From a virus, in UHGV virus genome UHGV-0211679: a DNA stretch of 8,257 nt; one strand, written 5' to 3'. The notes under the pieces are model-generated. The model saw only the letters and a program-made list of their open reading frames with translations. It ran no database searches and was not told the origin of the DNA. The position numbers and the translations under genes are program-made. This document shows positions 1,103 to 8,257 of this stretch, in pieces; within the stretch, counting starts at the first letter, position 1; every line of letters begins with the position of its first letter.

Positions 1103-2368
1103 ATGCGCTCTGTTATTGTTGCTTTTTTATTTGCCTGTTCATTCTGCGTTTCTGCTGAAACTGTTAATTTAAACAATTCATCTGTTCGCTCATTTGTTCA
1201 GTGGTATTCTTCAAAAACTGGCAAGCCTGTTATTGTTAATCCTGATATTAAAGGAAACGTAACCGTATTTAATGCTGATGTTAATCCAACAAATATTGAT
1301 GATTTCTTTAAGTCTGTTCTGAATGCTAACGGTTTTGTCATGCTTTCTGGCAATCCTGCGGTAGTCTCTTTGCCGTCTAAATTACCTTCACAGATGGTTT
1401 CGGATTCCGATGATTCTGATAACCAGTCTTATGATACTTTTCCTTCTGAGCCATCTTACCAGCCAGTACCTGTGGCGCTTACGGTCAGAAATTTTAAGCT
1501 GACAAAAGTTAGATCGTCCGATGTTCAGCAACTGATTAAAATTTATCTTGATTCTAATGGTGGTGGTAATGTCGTGGATTATCCAGGCAATAACTCGCTG
1601 ATTGTTTCTGCGCCTGACGAGCTGCTGCCGGTTCTGTCCGATTTTATCAATTCTGTGGATGTTGCCCGCGATCAGGTTCTCATTCAGTCGCTGATGTTTG
1701 AAACCAGCTTGTCTGATGGCGTTGATTTATCGTTTGCGGCAGGTTCTGCATCCGGTCATAAGGTTGCGGGGGGCTTTAATACTTCTGCACTGGGTAGCGC
1801 TCTTTCTACGGCGGGCGGTTCTTTTGGTATTTTTGATGGTAACGTGTTGGCGCTGTCTCTGCGTGCTGTCCAGAGTAATTCACGCTCTAAGGTGATTTCA
1901 ACGCCGCGTATTCTTACTCAGTCTGGTCAGACTGGTTACATTTCCGTAGGTAAGAATGTGCCGTTTATCACCGGAAAGGTAACGGGCGAATCTGCCGGGG
2001 TAAATAATCCGTTTCAGACTATCGAGCGTCATGATGTTGGCGTTTCTCTCAAGGTAACGCCTGTTGTCATGGGTAACGGGCAACTAGTTCTGACTATCGA
2101 CACTCGCGCTGATTCAATCAGCAATGATGATCAGGCATCCGATATTATTACTAATCAGCGCCAGATTCAGACGACAGTCCAGATTAAGGATGGTCAGACG
2201 TTGTTATTGGGGGGGCTTATCGATTCATCGTTTAGCAATGCTGAGCGTTCAGTTCCAGTTATAAGTAAAATTCCTCTTATAGGCTGGATTTTCAGTAGCA
2301 AGGCAGACAGCAATGAACAGCGTATTATGTATATTTTGCTTACAGCACATATCATTCGTCCACTTTGA
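1103..2368 (+). CDS. IV: Filamentous-phage secretin pIV (gene IV)
   Basis: ATG 1103 preceded by AGGAG (1088-1092); stop TGA 2366-2368. Signal-peptide-like N-terminus MRSVIVAFLFACSFCVSA. Secretin blocks GGSFGIF, VPFITGKVTGES, NPFQTIER, GQTLLLGGL and IPLIG match recalled Ff pIV. The track ORF extension back to 1010 overlaps gene I and is not used. Confidence 0.93.
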   Translation: MRSVIVAFLFACSFCVSAETVNLNNSSVRSFVQWYSSKTGKPVIVNPDIKGNVTVFNADVNPTNIDDFFKSVLNANGFVMLSGNPAVVSLPSKLPSQMVSDSDDSDNQSYDTFPSEPSYQPVPVALTVRNFKLTKVRSSDVQQLIKIYLDSNGGGNVVDYPGNNSLIVSAPDELLPVLSDFINSVDVARDQVLIQSLMFETSLSDGVDLSFAAGSASGHKVAGGFNTSALGSALSTAGGSFGIFDGNVLALSLRAVQSNSRSKVISTPRILTQSGQTGYISVGKNVPFITGKVTGESAGVNNPFQTIERHDVGVSLKVTPVVMGNGQLVLTIDTRADSISNDDQASDIITNQRQIQTTVQIKDGQTLLLGGLIDSSFSNAERSVPVISKIPLIGWIFSSKADSNEQRIMYILLTAHIIRPL

Positions 2369-2412
2369 TGGATAGCGGGTAGGTGCGTGAGCCCTGCTCG
2401 CTATCCATCAAA
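2364..2412 (+). other. Long DNA hairpin directly after gene IV (candidate packaging-signal or intergenic origin hairpin)
   Basis: Inverted repeat TTTGATGGATAGCG (2364-2377) / CGCTATCCATCAAA (2399-2412): 14 perfect bp, extendable by about 6 more with G-T wobbles. Overlaps the gene IV stop. In Ff phages the packaging-signal hairpin lies immediately after gene IV. The structure is seen; the role is inferred. Confidence 0.5.
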
Positions 2413-2437
2413 TGGACATTATTGATTGGGGTAACTA

Positions 2438-2746
2438 ATGGATTCTTATGGGATTTTATCTGCTCTGGCAGAACGAACGATTACAGCGGAAGAAGCAAAA
2501 ACAATGACACTTGCAGCCAGAAGTTCTTCGGCTCAGGTAAATGAAGCATCACTTGCTCTGTTACTGATTGATAATACTCTGGATGCGATCAAAGCAGCTG
2601 CCAGTGAAGGGAAAGGATACACTTTACTTCCTTCTTATGAGATTTCTTTAAAAGCCATTGATTTAGCAGAAGAATTTTTAAGGAAACAATGCGGCTATGT
2701 TATTGATAACCAGAATGGCGTAAGGACGGTCTATTGGTTTATATGA
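2438..2746 (+). CDS. Hypothetical protein, 102 aa, no recognisable family
   Basis: ORF ATG 2438 to TGA 2744-2746; weak SD-like GGGG 7 nt upstream. Mildly acidic, predicted mostly helical, no TM segment. Flanked by two long hairpins, so it could alternatively be non-coding intergenic sequence. Confidence 0.4.
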   Translation: MDSYGILSALAERTITAEEAKTMTLAARSSSAQVNEASLALLLIDNTLDAIKAAASEGKGYTLLPSYEISLKAIDLAEEFLRKQCGYVIDNQNGVRTVYWFI

Positions 2747-2747
2747 T

Positions 2748-2792
2748 AACCCCGGACAGTGACAAAACTTGCTTTTGTTAGTGTCCGGGGTT
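2748..2792 (+). other. Long near-perfect DNA hairpin (candidate origin or structured intergenic element)
   Basis: AACCCCGGACAGTGACAAAA (2748-2767) pairs with TTTTGTTAGTGTCCGGGGTT (2773-2792): about 19 bp stem with one mismatch and one G-T pair, 5-nt loop. A T7 run sits about 20 nt downstream (2813-2819), too far for a canonical intrinsic terminator. Confidence 0.5.
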
Positions 2793-2863
2793 GGCCAAGC
2801 CGAACAATTCTGTTTTTTTAGCGTTATTGCTGATTCGGCGCGGCAGCATTACGAGGAGATAAA

Positions 2864-3097
2864 ATGCAATTTTTCACATCCAGCGATACTGTAATGTTAT
2901 GTGCGAAGACCTGCGATCGCTGTGGTCGCCATGCGAAGACGGTGGTAGATGACATTGAGTTCAATGAGTTTCTGTCTGTTAATCACTTAGCTGGATACGG
3001 TTCAATTTTTGGTGACAGTAATCGCTTAAAACTGGATTTATGCCAACATTGCCTGAAAGACGTCCTGGGCCAGTGGATTACGGTCTGTGACCAATGA
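2864..3097 (+). CDS. Small zinc-ribbon-like protein, 77 aa (CxxC...CxxC)
   Basis: ATG 2864 preceded by a strong SD GAGGAG (2853-2858) with 5-nt spacer; stop TGA 3095-3097. Two CxxC pairs (CDRC and CQHC) about 43 residues apart suggest a Zn-binding ribbon. No family assignment possible by eye. Confidence 0.6.
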   Translation: MQFFTSSDTVMLCAKTCDRCGRHAKTVVDDIEFNEFLSVNHLAGYGSIFGDSNRLKLDLCQHCLKDVLGQWITVCDQ

Positions 3098-3135
3098 CGG
3101 CACCGGTAACGCCAGTTCCCACCATCCTTACCATT

Positions 3136-3168
3136 GGTGCGCATAATGTACGACTCGTTATGTTGAAA
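3136..3168 (+). other. dif-like XerC/XerD recombination site (candidate attP of an Xer-exploiting integrative phage)
   Basis: GGTGCGCATAA (3136-3146) is an 11/11 match to the XerC arm of E. coli dif (GGTGCGCATAA-TGTATA-TTATGTTAAAT, recalled). Then TGTACGACTCG (11-nt central region beginning TGTA), then TTATGTTGAAA (3158-3168), 9/11 to the XerD arm. Central region is longer than the canonical 6 bp. Confidence 0.6.
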
Positions 3169-3202
3169 AGGCCGCTGCGAAAATAGAATCCCGCAGCGGC
3201 CT
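3169..3202. terminator. Hairpin between convergent genes, putative bidirectional intrinsic terminator
   Basis: AGGCCGCTGCG (3169-3179) / CGCAGCGGCCT (3192-3202): 11-bp GC-rich stem, 12-nt loop. Followed by CTTTA on + and TTTCAA on the minus strand, so the U-tracts are short. Lies between the end of the 2864-3097 ORF and the end of the minus-strand operon. Confidence 0.5.
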
Positions 3203-3232
3203 CTTTAGCATAACGTCATTGTGCGAACCAAT

Positions 3233-3937
3233 TCATAATGCTGCGGGAGCCACGTAATAGACAATCACAAATACAGCTAATGCTCCACCTGCTCTTACCC
3301 AGTTTGATATTTTGACTTCTATAAACCCGGGTATAAATGAGACTACCCCAGCAACTGCTGCTGAAAGAATTATTCGAAAGAAAGTGTATTGAAAGTTCGT
3401 TGGATTAGGTATAAATATTGCGATTATTATAAAAAGAATAACAAGTAAAATGCCAAAGCTAAATGCCGCTATTCTCTCGTGTGCTTTTGTCAATTTTTCT
3501 TTTCCTTTATTGTCAAATCCATATACTGGCATATCTTCATTAACGAAAAGATTCCTTATTTCTTTTGCAGAACGTTTGTCATGGGCTTTTACTATCCTTT
3601 GCATTGAAGCAAAAGCAGTGGAGCTTGGTTTAATACTATTATCATTCATTACCTCTCTATATTTTTTGTAATGAGCTAAGATAAGGTGAAGAACATCAAT
3701 GCATGTTTCTGCAAGCCATTGATTCCATTGAGTATTATTTAATTCATCTACTGTTCTGTTATGTGCAGCGCAGTGTTCTAAATAGCCGAAAAAACTGTCT
3801 CCACATGAATTCACGGTATCAAAATCACATTTACCAGATAGGTAACACTCTAATGACTCAGTATATTTTTCATATAAACGCTCAATTTCTTTTTTTTGAT
3901 TATCAATGATACCGTGAACATCCATATCTGATTTCAC
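3233..3937 (-). CDS. Membrane protein, about 230 aa: Cys-rich soluble N-domain plus C-terminal transmembrane helices; function unknown
   Basis: Minus-strand ORF, stop TGA (rc of 3233-3235). First codon is GTG at 3937-3935, overlapping the upstream TAG (TAGTG); the first ATG is at 3925-3923. N-terminal about 155 aa hydrophilic with C-x5-C-x7-C-x10-C (LECYLSGKCDFDTVNSCGDSFFGYLEHC). C-terminus has hydrophobic stretches FSFGILLVILFIIIAIFIP, FFRIILSAAVAGVVSFIPGFI and GGALAVFVIVYYVAPAAL. Visibly AT-rich compared with the phage core. Confidence 0.6.
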   Translation of the reverse strand: MKSDMDVHGIIDNQKKEIERLYEKYTESLECYLSGKCDFDTVNSCGDSFFGYLEHCAAHNRTVDELNNTQWNQWLAETCIDVLHLILAHYKKYREVMNDNSIKPSSTAFASMQRIVKAHDKRSAKEIRNLFVNEDMPVYGFDNKGKEKLTKAHERIAAFSFGILLVILFIIIAIFIPNPTNFQYTFFRIILSAAVAGVVSFIPGFIEVKISNWVRAGGALAVFVIVYYVAPAAL

Positions 3938-4212
3938 TATCTTTTTTGTTGAGTGTTATTTGACTGGGATTGAATTTTTGCCAATAGCGAACTTGCTTTC
4001 GATGTATTCAATCCATTACAAATCATTCTTGTAATCGGTTTTTTGTAAATTCGATGAACGATATTTTCAACTTCAGTGATGCTTTCATTGCCACTGAGTT
4101 TTTTTATCTCATTGAACATCTCCTCCAATTGTTCATTTGTTGGATGCCATTTGATTATATCTAATTCTTCCTCTAATGCTTTTTTAAAAAGGAAAACCTG
4201 AAAAGATAACAT
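3937..4212 (-). CDS. Hypothetical small protein, 91 aa, with C-terminal tail paralogous to the upstream ORF
   Basis: ATG at 4212-4210 preceded by AAGGAAAG with 4-nt spacer; stop TAG (rc of 3937-3939). C-terminal 26 aa NGLNTSKASSLLAKIQSQSNNTQQKR parallels the tail of ORF 4214-4510. Confidence 0.55.
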   Translation of the reverse strand: MLSFQVFLFKKALEEELDIIKWHPTNEQLEEMFNEIKKLSGNESITEVENIVHRIYKKPITRMICNGLNTSKASSLLAKIQSQSNNTQQKR

Positions 4213-4213
4213 A

Positions 4214-4510
4214 TTACTTTCCTTGTGTTGGTTTAGTAGTGGATTGTTGAGCTTTTTCTAAAAGCCTTTTTGCTTTAGATGTGTCCAAACCATCTTGGGC
4301 AAAGCCTTGTTGCTTATCATTCTGTTTTTGTTCACTTTTTTTTGGCGTATTCATCAGTATATACTTTGACTCGTTTTGTTTATCTCGATGACTTACTTTT
4401 TGTTTAAGTTTTGCACAAACTAGAACGTGCAGTGTTGGTAATACTGCACGTTTGTACCATTCGTGGTACTTAATCCTTTTGTTTGGCAGACATGAGATCT
4501 TCTGCTGCAT
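4214..4510 (-). CDS. Hypothetical small K/Q-rich protein (start uncertain), tail paralogous to ORF 3937-4212
   Basis: Stop TAA (rc of 4214-4216), 1 nt before the ATG of the next gene. The track start at 4528 is a TTG; the first ATG is at 4510-4508, and a later ATG at 4354-4352 would give a 46-aa product. None has a clear SD. C-terminal 26 aa DGLDTSKAKRLLEKAQQSTTKPTQGK. Overlaps the end of the RHH gene if started at 4510. Confidence 0.3.
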   Translation of the reverse strand: MQQKISCLPNKRIKYHEWYKRAVLPTLHVLVCAKLKQKVSHRDKQNESKYILMNTPKKSEQKQNDKQQGFAQDGLDTSKAKRLLEKAQQSTTKPTQGK

Positions 4511-4652
4511 CTTTAGAGTAGTTATCAATCAGATAACCTAAAATCTCTGTCCATGTAATTGTTTTTCCTAGTTTTACACTGGCATTTATAGCCAGTCGTT
4601 CTAGTTTCATTTTTCTTTCTTCCGTCACGTTATAAGTCGTGCGCTTTGCCAT
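4470..4652 (-). CDS. Ribbon-helix-helix-like small DNA-binding protein, 60 aa (candidate phage repressor or antitoxin-type regulator)
   Basis: ATG at 4652-4650, stop TAA (rc of 4470-4472). MAKRTTYNVTEERKMKLERLAINASVKLGKTITWTEILGYLIDNYSKD fits an RHH pattern: short N-terminal beta-strand (TYNVT), helix, turn, helix. Divergent from gene II across a repeat-containing region. Confidence 0.55.
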   Translation of the reverse strand: MAKRTTYNVTEERKMKLERLAINASVKLGKTITWTEILGYLIDNYSKDAAEDLMSAKQKD

Positions 4653-4699
4653 TTTTTACGCTCGTTCAATGCAATATTTGAAGTGAGTATACATGCTCA

Positions 4700-4779
4700 T
4701 GAACTCATATCATCCAAGCCTCTTGAACTCACTAGCTCACTGATGTAATGTTAAAACACTAATGAACTACTGAACTCAT
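4700..4779. promoter_or_regulatory. Four direct TGAACT(C/A) repeats in the divergent control region (candidate operator or iteron array)
   Basis: TGAACTCAT at 4700-4708, TGAACTCAC at 4724-4732, TGAACTAC at 4763-4770, TGAACTCAT at 4771-4779. Located between the RHH gene start (4652, minus) and the gene II start (4822, plus). Confidence 0.45.
4723..4751 (+). promoter_or_regulatory. Candidate sigma70 promoter for gene II
   Basis: TTGAAC (4723-4728), 17-nt spacer, TAATGT (4746-4751). The -35 overlaps one TGAACT repeat. Pattern match by eye only. Confidence 0.3.
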
Positions 4780-4821
4780 GTGTTAGTAAGTCGTCATTTT
4801 TGCAATTTTGAGGATTTATTC

Positions 4822-5874
4822 GTGATCGATTGGCTTACCGGGATTTTCCCTTGCACACACAAACCGCTTCCGGCGGGGAGTGTTGTCAGCGTTGATGCTG
4901 ACGGTGCAATTGAGTGGGAAACCGTTAAGCGACTGACTGTTCGCGGCTCGCATGAAGCAACGATGAAAGTACGATCGATAGGATCTAATGGCGAAGGTAA
5001 AGCGACACATTTGTACATTGATGGTAATCCGTCCAAGTTTTTGCAGGGGCATTCTGTTGTTGGGTCGGATGATATACAAGGGCTCATGTTGACGGTCTAT
5101 GCCAGGATTTTATCCTTATTGAATATTCCTCATGATTTAGCGTCTTATAAAGCTGTTATAGCAGGTCAGTATAAAATTTCACGTGTTGACATTAATTACA
5201 TGTATTCATTATCTACGCTAGAAAATGTCAGATCATGGCTTTATGCCGCCGAATTTAAAGCTAAAACACGCCATGGTCGCGCATGTGGGAAAGGCGGTAC
5301 AGTTTATTTAGGTAAAAACTCCCGTCGATGGAGTCTGAAATTTTATTCAAAATATGATGAACACGTTTCGGGTAAAAAAGGGCACCAGATAGCCGAAGAT
5401 TTTGTACGAGCCGGGTTACTGGACTGGACGAAAGATAAATTACGTATTGAATTAACATTAAGAACAACTGAGCTTATTGATTTAAATTTAACGCTTGGCG
5501 CTAACTGGAATATGAAAACACCACGTCAATTATTCTCTGAATATGTAGGGAGAATAGAAATGAATCAGAATGCTATTTTAAGTGATGAAAAAATAACGAA
5601 ACTGCCAAGAAAAATACAGTCAACTTATTTACTTTGGAAACAAGGGGCTAACATGAAAGAAATGTTACCTCATAACACTTTTTATCGCCATAGAAGAGAA
5701 TTGCTTTCGTTCGGTATCGATATTAATTTCTATTGTGATTCACCAGACTCTAATAACGTTGTTCCGCTAATAAGAACGCTGGAAGCCAAGCCAGTGGAAA
5801 TCCCCTTATGGATTTATGAGAAAGGTTTTATTTTCGATTACAACCGTATTTCGCACGCCAGTAGCTGGCATTAA
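4822..5874 (+). CDS. II: Replication initiation protein pII (gene II, rolling-circle nickase)
   Basis: GTG start at 4822 preceded by GAGGA (4810-4814) with 7-nt spacer; product begins (M)IDWL..., compare M13 pII MIDML.... Blocks NPSKFLQGHSVVGSDD and NNVVPLIR match recalled M13 pII (SPAKVLQGHNVFGTTD, NNVVPLVR). Stop TAA 5872-5874. An upstream in-frame GTG at 4780 lacks an SD. Confidence 0.85.
   Translation: MIDWLTGIFPCTHKPLPAGSVVSVDADGAIEWETVKRLTVRGSHEATMKVRSIGSNGEGKATHLYIDGNPSKFLQGHSVVGSDDIQGLMLTVYARILSLLNIPHDLASYKAVIAGQYKISRVDINYMYSLSTLENVRSWLYAAEFKAKTRHGRACGKGGTVYLGKNSRRWSLKFYSKYDEHVSGKKGHQIAEDFVRAGLLDWTKDKLRIELTLRTTELIDLNLTLGANWNMKTPRQLFSEYVGRIEMNQNAILSDEKITKLPRKIQSTYLLWKQGANMKEMLPHNTFYRHRRELLSFGIDINFYCDSPDSNNVVPLIRTLEAKPVEIPLWIYEKGFIFDYNRISHASSWH
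5560..5874 (+). CDS. X: pX (gene X), in-frame internal start within gene II
   Basis: ATG at 5560 in the gene II frame with SD GGGAG (5548-5552); product MNQNAILSDEK..., 104 aa, equal to the C-terminal part of pII, as in Ff phages (M13 pX starts MNIYDDSAVL). Confidence 0.6.
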   Translation: MNQNAILSDEKITKLPRKIQSTYLLWKQGANMKEMLPHNTFYRHRRELLSFGIDINFYCDSPDSNNVVPLIRTLEAKPVEIPLWIYEKGFIFDYNRISHASSWH

Positions 5875-5885
5875 AGGAAAGTAAT

Positions 5886-6203
5886 ATGTCTAATTATGGT
5901 CTTTTCGTTAAGGGTAAAATGTTGGGAGCCCGCCAACGTAATAAAGTTAATGGTCAGGGCTATTATAATGAAATTGGTATTGGCCTTGAAATACCTGATG
6001 GTTTTGGTGGTACAAAGCAGGATCAAATTATTATTCGAGTTTCTCAGACTCTCGTTAACGCAGGTCTAATGAACCAGGCGAATGCTTTCATTGGGAAATT
6101 AGTTCAAATTCCTGTCTATGTCCGTGCGTGGTCAATGGAGGGTAGGGAAGGTGTAACTTATAATGTTTCTTCCGATGGTGGCATCGCAGAGATCAAAGGT
6201 TAA
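5886..6203 (+). CDS. Gene-V-position protein, 105 aa (putative ssDNA-binding protein by synteny; not recognisably Ff gVp-like)
   Basis: ATG 5886 preceded by AAGGAAAG; stop TAA 6201-6203. Sits between gene II/X and gene VII, where Ff phages encode gVp. The sequence (MSNYGLFVKGKMLGARQRN...) does not resemble M13 or IKe gVp as I recall them. Confidence 0.55.
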   Translation: MSNYGLFVKGKMLGARQRNKVNGQGYYNEIGIGLEIPDGFGGTKQDQIIIRVSQTLVNAGLMNQANAFIGKLVQIPVYVRAWSMEGREGVTYNVSSDGGIAEIKG

Positions 6204-6205
6204 AT

Positions 6206-6292
6206 ATGGACGATGTTATTCAAATTTTGATAGCGTCTGGCATCGTTATTTCTTTTGGCCTCGGCGCGATTACTGCGGGGGTCTTTCGTTAA
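6206..6292 (+). CDS. VII: Minor coat protein pVII (gene VII), 28 aa
   Basis: ATG 6206 three nt after the gene V stop; product MDDVIQILIASGIVISFGLGAITAGVFR is hydrophobic, similar in size and character to M13 pVII. Stop TAA 6290-6292 overlaps the gene IX ATG (TAATG). Confidence 0.6.
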   Translation: MDDVIQILIASGIVISFGLGAITAGVFR

Positions 6293-6387
6293 TGTATATC
6301 GTTTATTTCTTCGGGGCTTATACCTTTGGTTTTGCCCTTTTCTATGCGGTCGGTTCATTTAAATCATTTTCTGACCGATTAATGTAA
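6292..6387 (+). CDS. IX: Minor coat protein pIX (gene IX), 31 aa
   Basis: ATG 6292 in the TAATG overlap; product MYIVYFFGAYTFGFALFYAVGSFKSFSDRLM is a hydrophobic peptide resembling M13 pIX (MSVLVYSFASFVLGW...). Stop TAA 6385-6387. The longer track ORF from 6163 is an N-terminal over-extension. Confidence 0.65.
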   Translation: MYIVYFFGAYTFGFALFYAVGSFKSFSDRLM

Positions 6388-6406: not shown

Positions 6407-6649
6407 ATGAAAATTCTGTCTACTGTTAAATATAAAGTTGCTCTGGCTTCAACTGCGCTTTTTGTTTCTGCAAGTTCTTTTGCGGCTGAAGGCGCTACAG
6501 GTGGTACTGATTATGCAGGTCAGGCAATGGATGCTTTGTTGACTCAGGCAAATGATCTCATTGGTAAAGTATGGCCTGTTGTTGTGGCTGTGGTTGGCGC
6601 TGGGCTTGCCATTCGTATTTTCAAAAAATTCTCTTCAAAAGCGGTTTGA
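6407..6649 (+). CDS. VIII: Major coat protein pVIII precursor (gene VIII)
   Basis: ATG 6407 with GGAG 8 nt upstream; 80 aa. Signal peptide ending SSFA, then mature AEGATGG...[25 protein letters not shown]. The C-terminal [11 protein letters not shown] and WPVV match my recollection of IKe pVIII more closely than M13 (FKKFTSKAS). Stop TGA 6647-6649. Confidence 0.93.
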
Positions 6650-6695: not shown

Positions 6696-7916
6696 ATGAA
6701 AAGGAAAATATTAATTCTTTCCGCTGTCCTCATTTCTCCTTTTTCACATGCTGAGTCATGGGAAAGCATTACTAAATCCACTTATCAAAGCTCTGCCTAC
6801 GCTGAAAGTAAGCAAATAACCAATCAGGATGGCTCTAAGTCAACGGTTTACTATATTGATGCTGCTATGCAGGCCTCCGCTTGTCAGGGTGCTAAATCCA
6901 GTGCTCAGAGTGTATTTACTCAGGTTAAACCAACTTATGAGGGTATCTGGCCTGATTCTGAATTCCGTCTTGTTTTTACTGGTGATTGTACTTACAGCGA
7001 TTCACCAGGGCAGAAGGATAAATATTGGTCTTTAACGGCTTATATTGTTGGTGATATTCAGCGTTCTGTTCCTGATGAAAAACCTACTGACCCGACACCA
7101 GAAGAAATTTGTGAAGCGAAGCCGCCAGAAGAAGGTGTATTTAATAATGTTGATTCATATGATGGTGGTCGTTATATCTACTATAACGGCTGTGAATATG
7201 AGGCTACTGGTGTCATTGTTTGTCAGGGTGATGGTACTGTTTGCGCTGCAACATGGAAGCCTACAGGTACTGTAGCTGACCCCTCTGATAAACCCTCAAC
7301 CCCCCAAAATGGTGGTGGTGAGTCTGGCGGTGGTGAGTCTGGCGGTGGTGAGTCCGGTGGCGGTAGTTCTGGCGGTGGCTTTAGTGGTTCCAGTCTTTCT
7401 AAAGGTGATATTCAGTCTGCTATCGAAGGTGCTTCACCCAAAATAGCCAGCGATATTCATGATAAATTAACGGAGAAAGACACTTCATCAGATGATAAAA
7501 AAAATGCCGATGAACAAACTAGGAATAATATAAATCGTCTTGACGATTCCATTAACAATCTTACGCGGGGGGCTGGCCGTTTTGCTGACCCTTCAGGTGG
7601 TGATTCTCGTTATGGAAAGGGCGACTCTGAATTAGATGGCGCTTCTACTTTGGCTGATTCTGAATTGGGAATTGAAAAGGATTCTCACGGTGCTTTATGG
7701 GAAGCATTTTTAAATAAAGGTGCTATGCTGCCTAATTTACCCAATGGTAACGGCTGCTCTGATTTTATTATTTTTCCCGGAGAGGTTTATCAGATTGATA
7801 TTGGTTGCGATAAATTACTGACTATTAAAGATGTTCTTTCATGGGTTTTTTATTGCCTTACGTTCTGGTATGTCTTTACTTCTTTAACTTCATTGCTTCG
7901 CAAAGGGGGTGAGTGA
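6696..7916 (+). CDS. III: Adsorption protein pIII (gene III) with Gly-rich linker
   Basis: ATG 6696 gives signal peptide [19 protein letters not shown]. Gly/Ser-rich linker [23 protein letters not shown] and a hydrophobic C-terminal anchor ([14 protein letters not shown]) are typical of pIII. Stop TGA 7914-7916 overlaps the gene VI ATG (TGATG). The track start at 6552 overlaps gene VIII and is rejected. Confidence 0.9.
7311..7379 (+). repeat. Tandem 15-bp repeats encoding the pIII (GGGES)n linker
   Basis: GGTGGTGAGTCTGGC at 7314-7328 and 7329-7343, with diverged copies at 7344-7358 and 7359-7373. Confidence 0.85.
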
Positions 7917-8257
7917 TGCCTTTATTATTAGGTATTCCTGCATTGTTGCGTTTTCTTATTGGTCTTGTTCCTTTGTTTATTGGCTATGTGGCGAGTTTTT
8001 TAGCTCGACTTGCTACCAGAACAGGATTAATCGCCTTTGCATTGGTCGCATTAATTACAACAACTGTTACGCTTTTAATGCAGTACCTTGCTGAGGTCAT
8101 GTATAACGGTTTACCTGCTGATTTCTCCCATTTAATGGCGTCTGTATTGCCTGACCATTTTCAGGCGTGTGTTAACGTTATTATGGTTACTCGTATCAGT
8201 GTTTTTGTTTTCGATTTAAAACAAAAATTTCTTGATTATGCAAACAGGGTGATTTAA
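7916..8257 (+). CDS. VI: Minor coat protein pVI (gene VI)
   Basis: ATG 7916 (a GTG at 7913 is also in frame); product [17 protein letters not shown]... matches recalled M13 pVI (MPVLLGIPLLLRF...), including a C-terminal FDLKQK versus FDVKQK. Stop TAA 8255-8257 is the last codon of the window and abuts the gene I ATG at position 1 if the sequence is circular. Confidence 0.88.
   Translation: MPLLLGIPALLRFLIGLVPLFIGYVASFLARLATRTGLIAFALVALITTTVTLLMQYLAEVMYNGLPADFSHLMASVLPDHFQACVNVIMVTRISVFVFDLKQKFLDYANRVI

What the first reader, a model, noticed from the sequence alone, without database searches (positions are those of the whole stretch)
5886..6203. Gene V slot occupied by a protein that does not look like Ff/IKe gVp
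Genes I, IV, II, VIII, III and VI are recognisably Ff/IKe-like, but the ORF in the gene V position is 105 aa and shows no similarity I can see to the 87-88 aa gVp of M13 or IKe. This suggests modular replacement of the ssDNA-binding function or a divergent lineage.
Basis: partly seen in the sequence, partly recalled or inferred. Interest (0 to 1): 0.55.

Follow-up and report, generated by a model that had tools for sequence, protein, structure and literature searches.

The report
Known I2-2-type phage gene V protein
The 105-residue protein in the gene V slot is real and unrelated in sequence to the M13/IKe gene V protein. It belongs to an already catalogued alternative family of filamentous-phage DNA-binding proteins (phage I2-2, YpfPhi, UPPhi), so the finding is correct but not new.

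Summary
The ORF at 5886-6203 exists, has a good ribosome-binding site, and sits between gene II/X and gene VII. It shows no similarity to M13 or IKe gVp by BLASTP, Pfam or profile-profile comparison.

It matches Pfam PF17426 (Putative_G5P) over its full length (E 7e-51). It is 41% identical to the gene V product of phage I2-2 and 93% identical to the YpfPhi copy in Yersinia pestis.

The window is a UPPhi901-type prophage. It is 99.9% identical to copies in 47 complete E. coli genomes. Shapiro and Putonti (2020) already reported that genes II and V of this phage form a module shared with YpfPhi and unlike IKe/M13.

A confident AlphaFold model (pLDDT 89.6) gives a canonical OB fold. Its best structural matches are cellular and phage SSB proteins, not Ff gVp. 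I therefore read the protein as the phage's ssDNA-sequestering protein, a functional analogue of gVp. No member of the family has biochemical support that I could find.

One small addition: gene V moves independently of gene II. PF17426 genes pair with I2-2-type, Ff-type and If1-type gene II.

Verdict: observation confirmed, interpretation supported, already known, low interest.

The parts
5886..6203 (+). Gene V equivalent: 105-aa PF17426 (Putative_G5P) protein, predicted SSB-like OB fold, presumed ssDNA-binding protein
5874..5881 (+). Shine-Dalgarno sequence AAGGAAAG for gene V, overlapping the gene II stop codon (5872-5874)
   Evidence: Read directly from the sequence.
4780..5874 (+). Gene II (rolling-circle replication initiator), I2-2/YpfPhi subtype. 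RefSeq starts it at 4822. Part of the same exchanged module.
   Evidence: Pfam Phage_CRI E 6e-69 and G2P_X_C E 5e-29. 56% identical to I2-2 gII, 23% to M13 gII. 85% identical to the Y. pestis copy. RefSeq start.
5560..5874 (+). Predicted gene X (in-frame internal start in gene II, 104 aa)
   Evidence: In-frame ATG preceded by GGGAG. The start is homologous in position and sequence to the annotated I2-2 gene X start. This is an inference.
6206..6292 (+). Gene VII, first gene of the IKe/I2-2-like morphogenesis block. It marks the downstream module junction.
   Evidence: PF19978 E 2.7e-11. 70% identical to IKe and I2-2 gVII. YpfPhi nucleotide similarity stops at 6210.

Best explanation
The ORF encodes the phage's gene V function in a different protein family. 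It is a small, basic (pI 9.35), single-domain OB-fold protein of Pfam family PF17426, the family of the I2-2 gene V product. By analogy with Ff gVp, it would coat newly made plus-strand ssDNA. This would withhold the DNA from conversion to the replicative form and deliver it to the pI/pIV assembly machinery, where the coat protein replaces it. It may also damp gene II/X translation. The gene arrived with gene II/X as a replication module of the I2-2/YpfPhi type, joined to an IKe-like morphogenesis block. What is shown: family membership, the gene-V position conserved across many inoviruses, the OB fold with SSB-like topology, and the mosaic junctions. What is inferred: ssDNA binding itself, the oligomeric state, cooperativity and any translational control.
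Confidence: 0.85

Rival explanations
1. Divergent lineage: the protein is a true but very diverged homolog of Ff/IKe gVp (PF02303) that drifted beyond recognition, with no replacement by an unrelated gene.
For: Both are about 10 kDa beta-barrel, OB-type proteins in the same genomic slot. OB-fold families are often related at levels that sequence cannot show.
Confidence: 0.08
2. The protein is not the ssDNA-sequestering protein. It has another role, such as a regulator or replication accessory factor, and host SSB or another phage ORF covers the gVp function.
For: No experiment supports ssDNA binding for this family. One homolog lies in a non-virion context next to TrbL and LuxR genes.
Against: No other ORF in the window hits PF02303, PF17878, SSB or any DNA-binding family. 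The position is conserved in many inovirus lineages with different morphogenesis modules. The fold matches ssDNA binders best. From established Ff biology, host SSB does not substitute for gVp.
Confidence: 0.06
3. The ORF is a chance open reading frame and not a gene.
For: None beyond its small size.
Against: Pfam E 7e-51. 196 clusters at 50% identity in the representative library. The exact sequence is on at least 1000 contigs. A Shine-Dalgarno sequence is present, and gene VII starts 2 nt after the gene V stop.
Confidence: 0.01

Closest known systems
Gene V product of phage I2-2 (Lineavirus I22, NP_039617; Pfam PF17426 Putative_G5P)
   Same: Same Pfam family, same slot between gene II/X and gene VII, similar length (108 vs 105 aa), 41% identity over 100 residues. 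The accompanying gene II is 56% identical.
   Different: It is the least conserved of the shared genes. I2-2 gene V overlaps gene VII and carries a short C-terminal extension. I2-2 does not integrate and lacks the accessory region (PMC7307601).
Gene V of YpfPhi / CUSPhi (Yersinia pestis, ExPEC E. coli) and of UPPhi901
   Same: 93% identical protein in Y. pestis NCTC5923, with gene II at 85%. The window is 99.9% identical to UPPhi-type prophages in E. coli. The module relationship is stated in PMC7307601.
   Different: In YpfPhi, no similarity to the window's morphogenesis genes was detected in the 2.5 kb downstream of gene V. Only window 4823-6210 is shared, plus an ~80-nt upstream element (4401-4480).
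Ff/IKe gene V protein (Pfam PF02303 Phage_DNA_bind; structures 1VQB/1GVP)
   Same: Same genomic slot, similar size and basic charge (pI 9.35 vs 9.17), beta-barrel OB-type architecture, same presumed role.
   Different: No sequence or profile similarity. Different Pfam family. The predicted topology includes the canonical inter-strand helix. The structural neighbours are SSBs, not gVp.
Bacterial, mitochondrial and phage SSB OB domain (E. coli SSB 1KAW/1EYG, Rim1 6CQK, PriB)
   Different: No detectable sequence homology. No acidic C-terminal tail or flexible linker. 105 aa in total. Oligomeric state unknown.
Gene V protein of phage If1 (96 aa)
   Same: Same slot in a related coliphage; a further example of gene V replacement.
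   Different: No similarity to the window protein or to M13/IKe gVp, and no Pfam family.

Membership tests
Pfam PF17426 Putative_G5P (I2-2-type gene V protein) | Score above the Pfam gathering threshold over the whole domain | tested here: met
   171.2 bits vs cut-off 25, E 7.4e-51, residues 2-104 on profile 1-108.
Pfam PF17426 Putative_G5P (I2-2-type gene V protein) | Small single-domain protein encoded just downstream of the inovirus replication gene | tested here: met
   105 aa, 11 nt after the gene II stop. Same arrangement in I2-2 and eight other loci.
Pfam PF17426 Putative_G5P (I2-2-type gene V protein) | Binds single-stranded DNA | not testable with these tools
   Inferred only from fold and position. 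No experimental paper found.
Ff/IKe gVp (Pfam PF02303 Phage_DNA_bind) | Sequence or profile match to the family | tested here: not met
   No hmmscan hit even at E up to 10, whereas M13 and IKe gVp hit at 1e-42 and 2e-23. hhalign probability 0.1%. BLASTP E above 4.
Ff/IKe gVp (Pfam PF02303 Phage_DNA_bind) | gVp-type fold as nearest structural neighbour | tested here: not met
Cellular/phage SSB family (PF00436) | Sequence match to the SSB family | tested here: not met
   No Pfam hit. No PDB sequence or profile hit. hhalign vs 60 phage SSBs gives probability below 0.1%, but that alignment has low diversity (Neff 1.3).
Cellular/phage SSB family (PF00436) | OB fold with helix between strands 3 and 4 | tested here: met
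Cellular/phage SSB family (PF00436) | Flexible linker and acidic C-terminal tip (DDDIPF-like) that recruits partner proteins | tested here: not met
   The protein ends ...SSDGGIAEIKG at residue 105, directly after strand 5.
UPPhi viruses (Shapiro and Putonti 2020) | Near-identity to UPPhi901-type prophages, integrated in tandem at dif, IKe/I2-2-like core, accessory genes h1/h2, GGGES repeats in g3p | tested here: met
   99.9% identity and 100% coverage in 47 complete E. coli genomes, several from urine. Tandem copies beside hipBA, with dif at the right end. GGGES x3 in gene III. Two ORFs after gene IV. Description in PMC7307601. UPPhi901 itself was not available for direct alignment.

The most novel reading that the evidence does not exclude
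Gene V is a free-standing cassette in inoviruses, not a fixed part of a 'replication module'. At least three ssDNA-binding protein families with no detectable sequence similarity to each other (PF02303, PF17426, If1-type) combine freely with three gene II subtypes. PF17426 would be an independent recruitment of an SSB-like OB domain, and it may coat phage ssDNA with a geometry different from the Ff gVp dimer. If so, gVp needs no co-adapted partner in gene II, and the family could also serve non-virion rolling-circle elements.
Probability: 0.45. Interest if true: 0.35.

Novelty: already known. Interest (0 to 1): 0.15.

Why it matters
It matters little as a discovery. The protein family is in Pfam, RefSeq names the protein 'DNA-binding protein', and the II/V module swap is published for this phage group. 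From my own knowledge, it was also published for I2-2 in 1992.

The residual value has three parts. First, an abundant family of filamentous-phage gene V proteins has no biochemical or structural characterisation, although it is carried by prophages of uropathogenic E. coli, Salmonella and Y. pestis. Second, its predicted fold resembles cellular SSB more than Ff gVp. Third, gene V appears to be exchanged on its own. This bears on how tightly gVp is coupled to pII, to gene II mRNA control and to the assembly machinery.

Tried and rejected
1. Ff/IKe gVp homology: BLASTP, Pfam and two hhalign runs were all negative.

2. Sequence link to solved structures: phmmer and a profile hmmsearch against PDB sequences gave only noise.

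3. Sequence link to SSB: I assembled 60 unique phage SSB OB domains and ran hhalign. Probability was below 0.1%. A non-significant local alignment places W82 on E. coli SSB W88, and I do not rely on it. The SSB alignment was of low diversity, so this negative result is weak.

4. Exhaustive HMM search of 1.84 billion representatives: the family stays closed at about 100-125 aa. A few very long proteins matched through short, repeated stretches; I took these to be spurious and did not follow them up.

5. NCBIfam gave no model. PHROGs gave phrog_1547 'unknown function'.

6. Another ORF as the real gVp: none of the accessory ORFs has any relevant Pfam hit.

7. An ungapped search for dif found nothing in the window. 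Reading the sequence showed a dif-like site with a longer central region.

9. Literature on I2-2 gVp biochemistry: nothing in the held library. Gonzalez et al. 2002 is not held.

10. My initial recollection that PF17426 was built on If1 gVp was wrong. If1 gVp has no Pfam family.

Full report
**What is there.** The window is a complete filamentous-phage genome unit. Gene I lies at 1-1095 and gene IV at about 1103-2368. An accessory region spans 2383-4780. Gene II is at 4780-5874, with a predicted in-frame gene X at 5560-5874. The ORF in question is at 5886-6203. It is followed by gene VII (6206-6292), gene IX (6292-6387), gene VIII (6407-6649), gene III (about 6696-7916) and gene VI (7913-8257).

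The ORF is 105 codons long. A Shine-Dalgarno sequence AAGGAAAG lies 7 nt upstream of its ATG and overlaps the gene II stop. Its own TAA stop is 2 nt before the gene VII ATG.

**Is it unlike Ff/IKe gVp?** Yes.
- BLASTP against M13 gVp (87 aa) and IKe gVp (88 aa) gives E-values of 4.9 and 6.2. A small-database BLASTP gives no gVp hit at all.
- M13 and IKe gVp match Pfam PF02303 at 1e-42 and 2e-23. The window protein does not match it, even at E up to 10.
- I built a 65-sequence alignment of the window protein's family (A2) and a 28-sequence alignment of the Ff/IKe gVp family (A4). Profile-profile comparison gives 0.1% probability.

**What it is.** The protein matches Pfam PF17426 'Putative_G5P' over its full length (E 7.4e-51).
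- Its best match among deposited phages is the annotated gene V product of phage I2-2, at 40-41% identity.
- Weaker relatives are annotated DNA-binding proteins of human-oral Inovirus genomes, Dulem viruses and small Pseudomonas filamentous phages.
- In the large protein collections, the family comprises about 130 clusters at 90% identity and 196 at 50% identity. Almost all are single-domain proteins of 100-125 aa. They come from Enterobacterales, Pasteurellaceae, Pseudomonas, Stutzerimonas and others.
- The exact window sequence occurs on at least 1000 contigs and is named 'MULTISPECIES: DNA-binding protein'.

**Where the window comes from.** It is 99.9% identical over its full length to prophages in 47 complete E. 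coli genomes. Many of these are human or urine isolates.
- In strain 85.0412 the prophage lies in tandem copies beside hipBA. A perfect dif site sits at the right end.
- This matches the UPPhi901 group described by Shapiro and Putonti (Virus Evol 2020, PMC7307601).
[quoted passage not shown] It reports that these two genes are more than 85% identical to those of YpfPhi and less than 15% similar in IKe and M13. The authors attribute this to recombination.

**Independent check of the mosaic.** My results agree with the paper.
- The Y. pestis NCTC5923 copy of gene V is 93% identical, and its gene II is 85% identical.
- Its main nucleotide similarity to the window covers 4823-6210. This runs from the RefSeq gene II start to a few bases past the gene V stop. 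The only other match is an ~80-nt element upstream of gene II (4401-4480).
- The morphogenesis genes are 50-73% identical to both IKe and I2-2. Gene II is 56% identical to I2-2 gene II and only 22-23% identical to M13/IKe gene II.
- From my own knowledge, Stassen et al. (J Mol Evol 1992) already described I2-2 as an IKe-like phage with a foreign replication module. I could not retrieve that paper here.

**Fold and likely mechanism.** AlphaFold2 with the 65-sequence alignment gives a confident model (mean pLDDT 89.6, pTM 0.78). The order of elements is strand 6-19, strand 26-37, strand 43-52, helix 54-67, strand 72-84, strand 87-94. This is the canonical OB-fold order.
- Forty-nine of the top 50 Foldseek PDB hits are SSB structures, at E about 1e-5 to 3e-4; the other is an editosome OB-fold chain.
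- In the viral structure library, the hits are tailed-phage SSBs and the ssDNA-binding protein of the filamentous Thermus phage OH3.
- No Ff gVp chain appears in any listed set.
- The similarity is at fold level only. TM-scores are about 0.45-0.55. No sequence or profile link to SSB could be shown.
- The protein is basic (pI 9.35).
- The best-conserved positions are glycines at the hairpins together with F40, K71, V73, V77, W82 and Y92. These lie on the barrel and on its strand 2-3 and strand 4-5 hairpins. That placement is plausible for base stacking and phosphate contacts, but it is an inference.

I conclude that the protein is the functional counterpart of gVp. It would coat plus-strand ssDNA, block its conversion to replicative form and hand it to the assembly site. 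I give this about 85% confidence. ssDNA binding, oligomeric state, cooperativity and any repression of gene II translation are untested for the whole family.

**Support from position.** In every lineage examined, the PF17426 gene lies directly after a Phage_CRI/G2P_X_C replication gene, or one small ORF away, and before the small coat genes. This holds even where the morphogenesis module is of the Zot/DUF2523/Phage_Coat_B type rather than Ff-like. No other ORF in the window resembles any DNA-binding protein.

**A small addition to what is published.** Gene V type does not track gene II subtype.
- The window, I2-2 and YpfPhi pair an I2-2-type gene II with a PF17426 gene V.
- Pseudomonas phages 97-1 and 42-1 pair an Ff-type gene II (38% identical to M13, E 1e-90) with a PF17426 gene V.
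- Dulem virus 53 pairs an If1-type gene II (52% identical to If1 ORF320) with a PF17426 gene V.
- A Pectobacterium brasiliense contig has a gene V 74% identical to the window's. Its gene II is 74% identical to that of If1 and only about 27% identical to the window's over short segments. Its gene V nucleotide similarity to the window (5885-6164) begins at the gene V start codon and stays within gene V; the only other match is the ~60-nt conserved element upstream of gene II.
- If1 itself carries a third, orphan gene V with no Pfam family.

Gene V therefore behaves as a cassette in its own right. The sample is small, and I did not test congruence formally.

**Rivals.**
- Extreme divergence from Ff gVp cannot be excluded at the level of the OB superfold. 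It is disfavoured by the profile result, the SSB-like structural neighbours, the sharp similarity boundaries, and the good conservation of the adjacent genes.

**Verdict.** Both the protein family and the module swap in this phage group are already documented. Novelty is 'already known' and interest is low (0.15).

Noticed in passing
window 3136-3168 and 3171-3202: A dif-like attP, GGTGCGCATAA-TGTACGACTCG-TTATGTTGAAA. The XerC arm is exact, the XerD arm has 2 mismatches, and the central region is 11 nt instead of 6. It is followed by a GC-rich hairpin (GGCCGCTGCG...CGCAGCGGCC) that looks like a terminator. The ungapped dif search missed it. The perfect host dif lies at the right end of the tandem prophage (L009 20423-20450).
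   Followed up: partly
window 4424-4470 (+ strand), in the gap between the RefSeq-annotated minus-strand ORFs: Two adjacent hairpins: AACGTGCAGTGTTGGTAATACTGCACGTT and GTACCATTCGTGGTAC. The DNA fold z-score is -5.3. They are conserved in the Y. pestis, Brenneria and Pectobacterium elements. The second stem carries a compensatory change in Y. pestis (GTCTCA...TGAGAC). This is a candidate replication origin or packaging signal. It is conserved even where gene II is of the If1 type.
   Followed up: partly
L102 (Pectobacterium brasiliense CFBP8736 contig, 5888 nt) 1369-4305: An If1-type gene II and a PF17426 gene V are followed by a LuxR/GerE-family regulator and a TrbL/VirB6 conjugal-transfer protein, not by coat genes. 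It could be a plasmid or other rolling-circle element using the phage II/V pair, or a rearranged prophage.
   Followed up: partly
window 2438-2746, 2864-3097 (+); 3233-3937, 3937-4212, 4214-4528, 4470-4652 (-): Accessory ORFs (h1 and h2 of the UPPhi paper, plus reverse-strand ORFs) have no significant Pfam match. The 77-aa ORF has two CxxC pairs (zinc-ribbon-like). The C-terminal third of the 234-aa ORF is markedly hydrophobic (residues ~158-234), which suggests membrane-spanning segments.
   Followed up: partly
L004 (phage If1) 1-291 and 6040-7086: If1 gene V (96 aa) matches no Pfam family and neither of the other two gVp families. If1 ORF348 is a TnpB-like protein (OrfB_IS605 + Cas12f1-like TNB domain) sitting inside a filamentous phage genome.
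   Followed up: no
L095 (contig labelled MAG: Candidatus Nanosynbacter sp., 25 kb): It carries a UPPhi-type phage 98.8% identical to the window, including an Enterobacterales-type gene III. This is most likely a binning or contamination artefact rather than a Saccharibacteria phage.
   Followed up: no
window ~7300-7400 (gene III linker): The linker has GGGES x3 plus GGGSS repeats. The window copy is 30 nt shorter than the prophage copy in CP122448 (8257 vs 8287 nt). I did not locate the indel, but it may reflect the repeat-number variation reported for UPPhi g3p.
   Followed up: no
L090 vs L091 (two Haemophilus ducreyi genome assemblies): The same prophage carries an intact 384-aa gene II in one assembly. 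In the other, gene II is split into 298-aa and 76-aa ORFs, and the Zot gene is fragmented. This suggests prophage decay.
   Followed up: no
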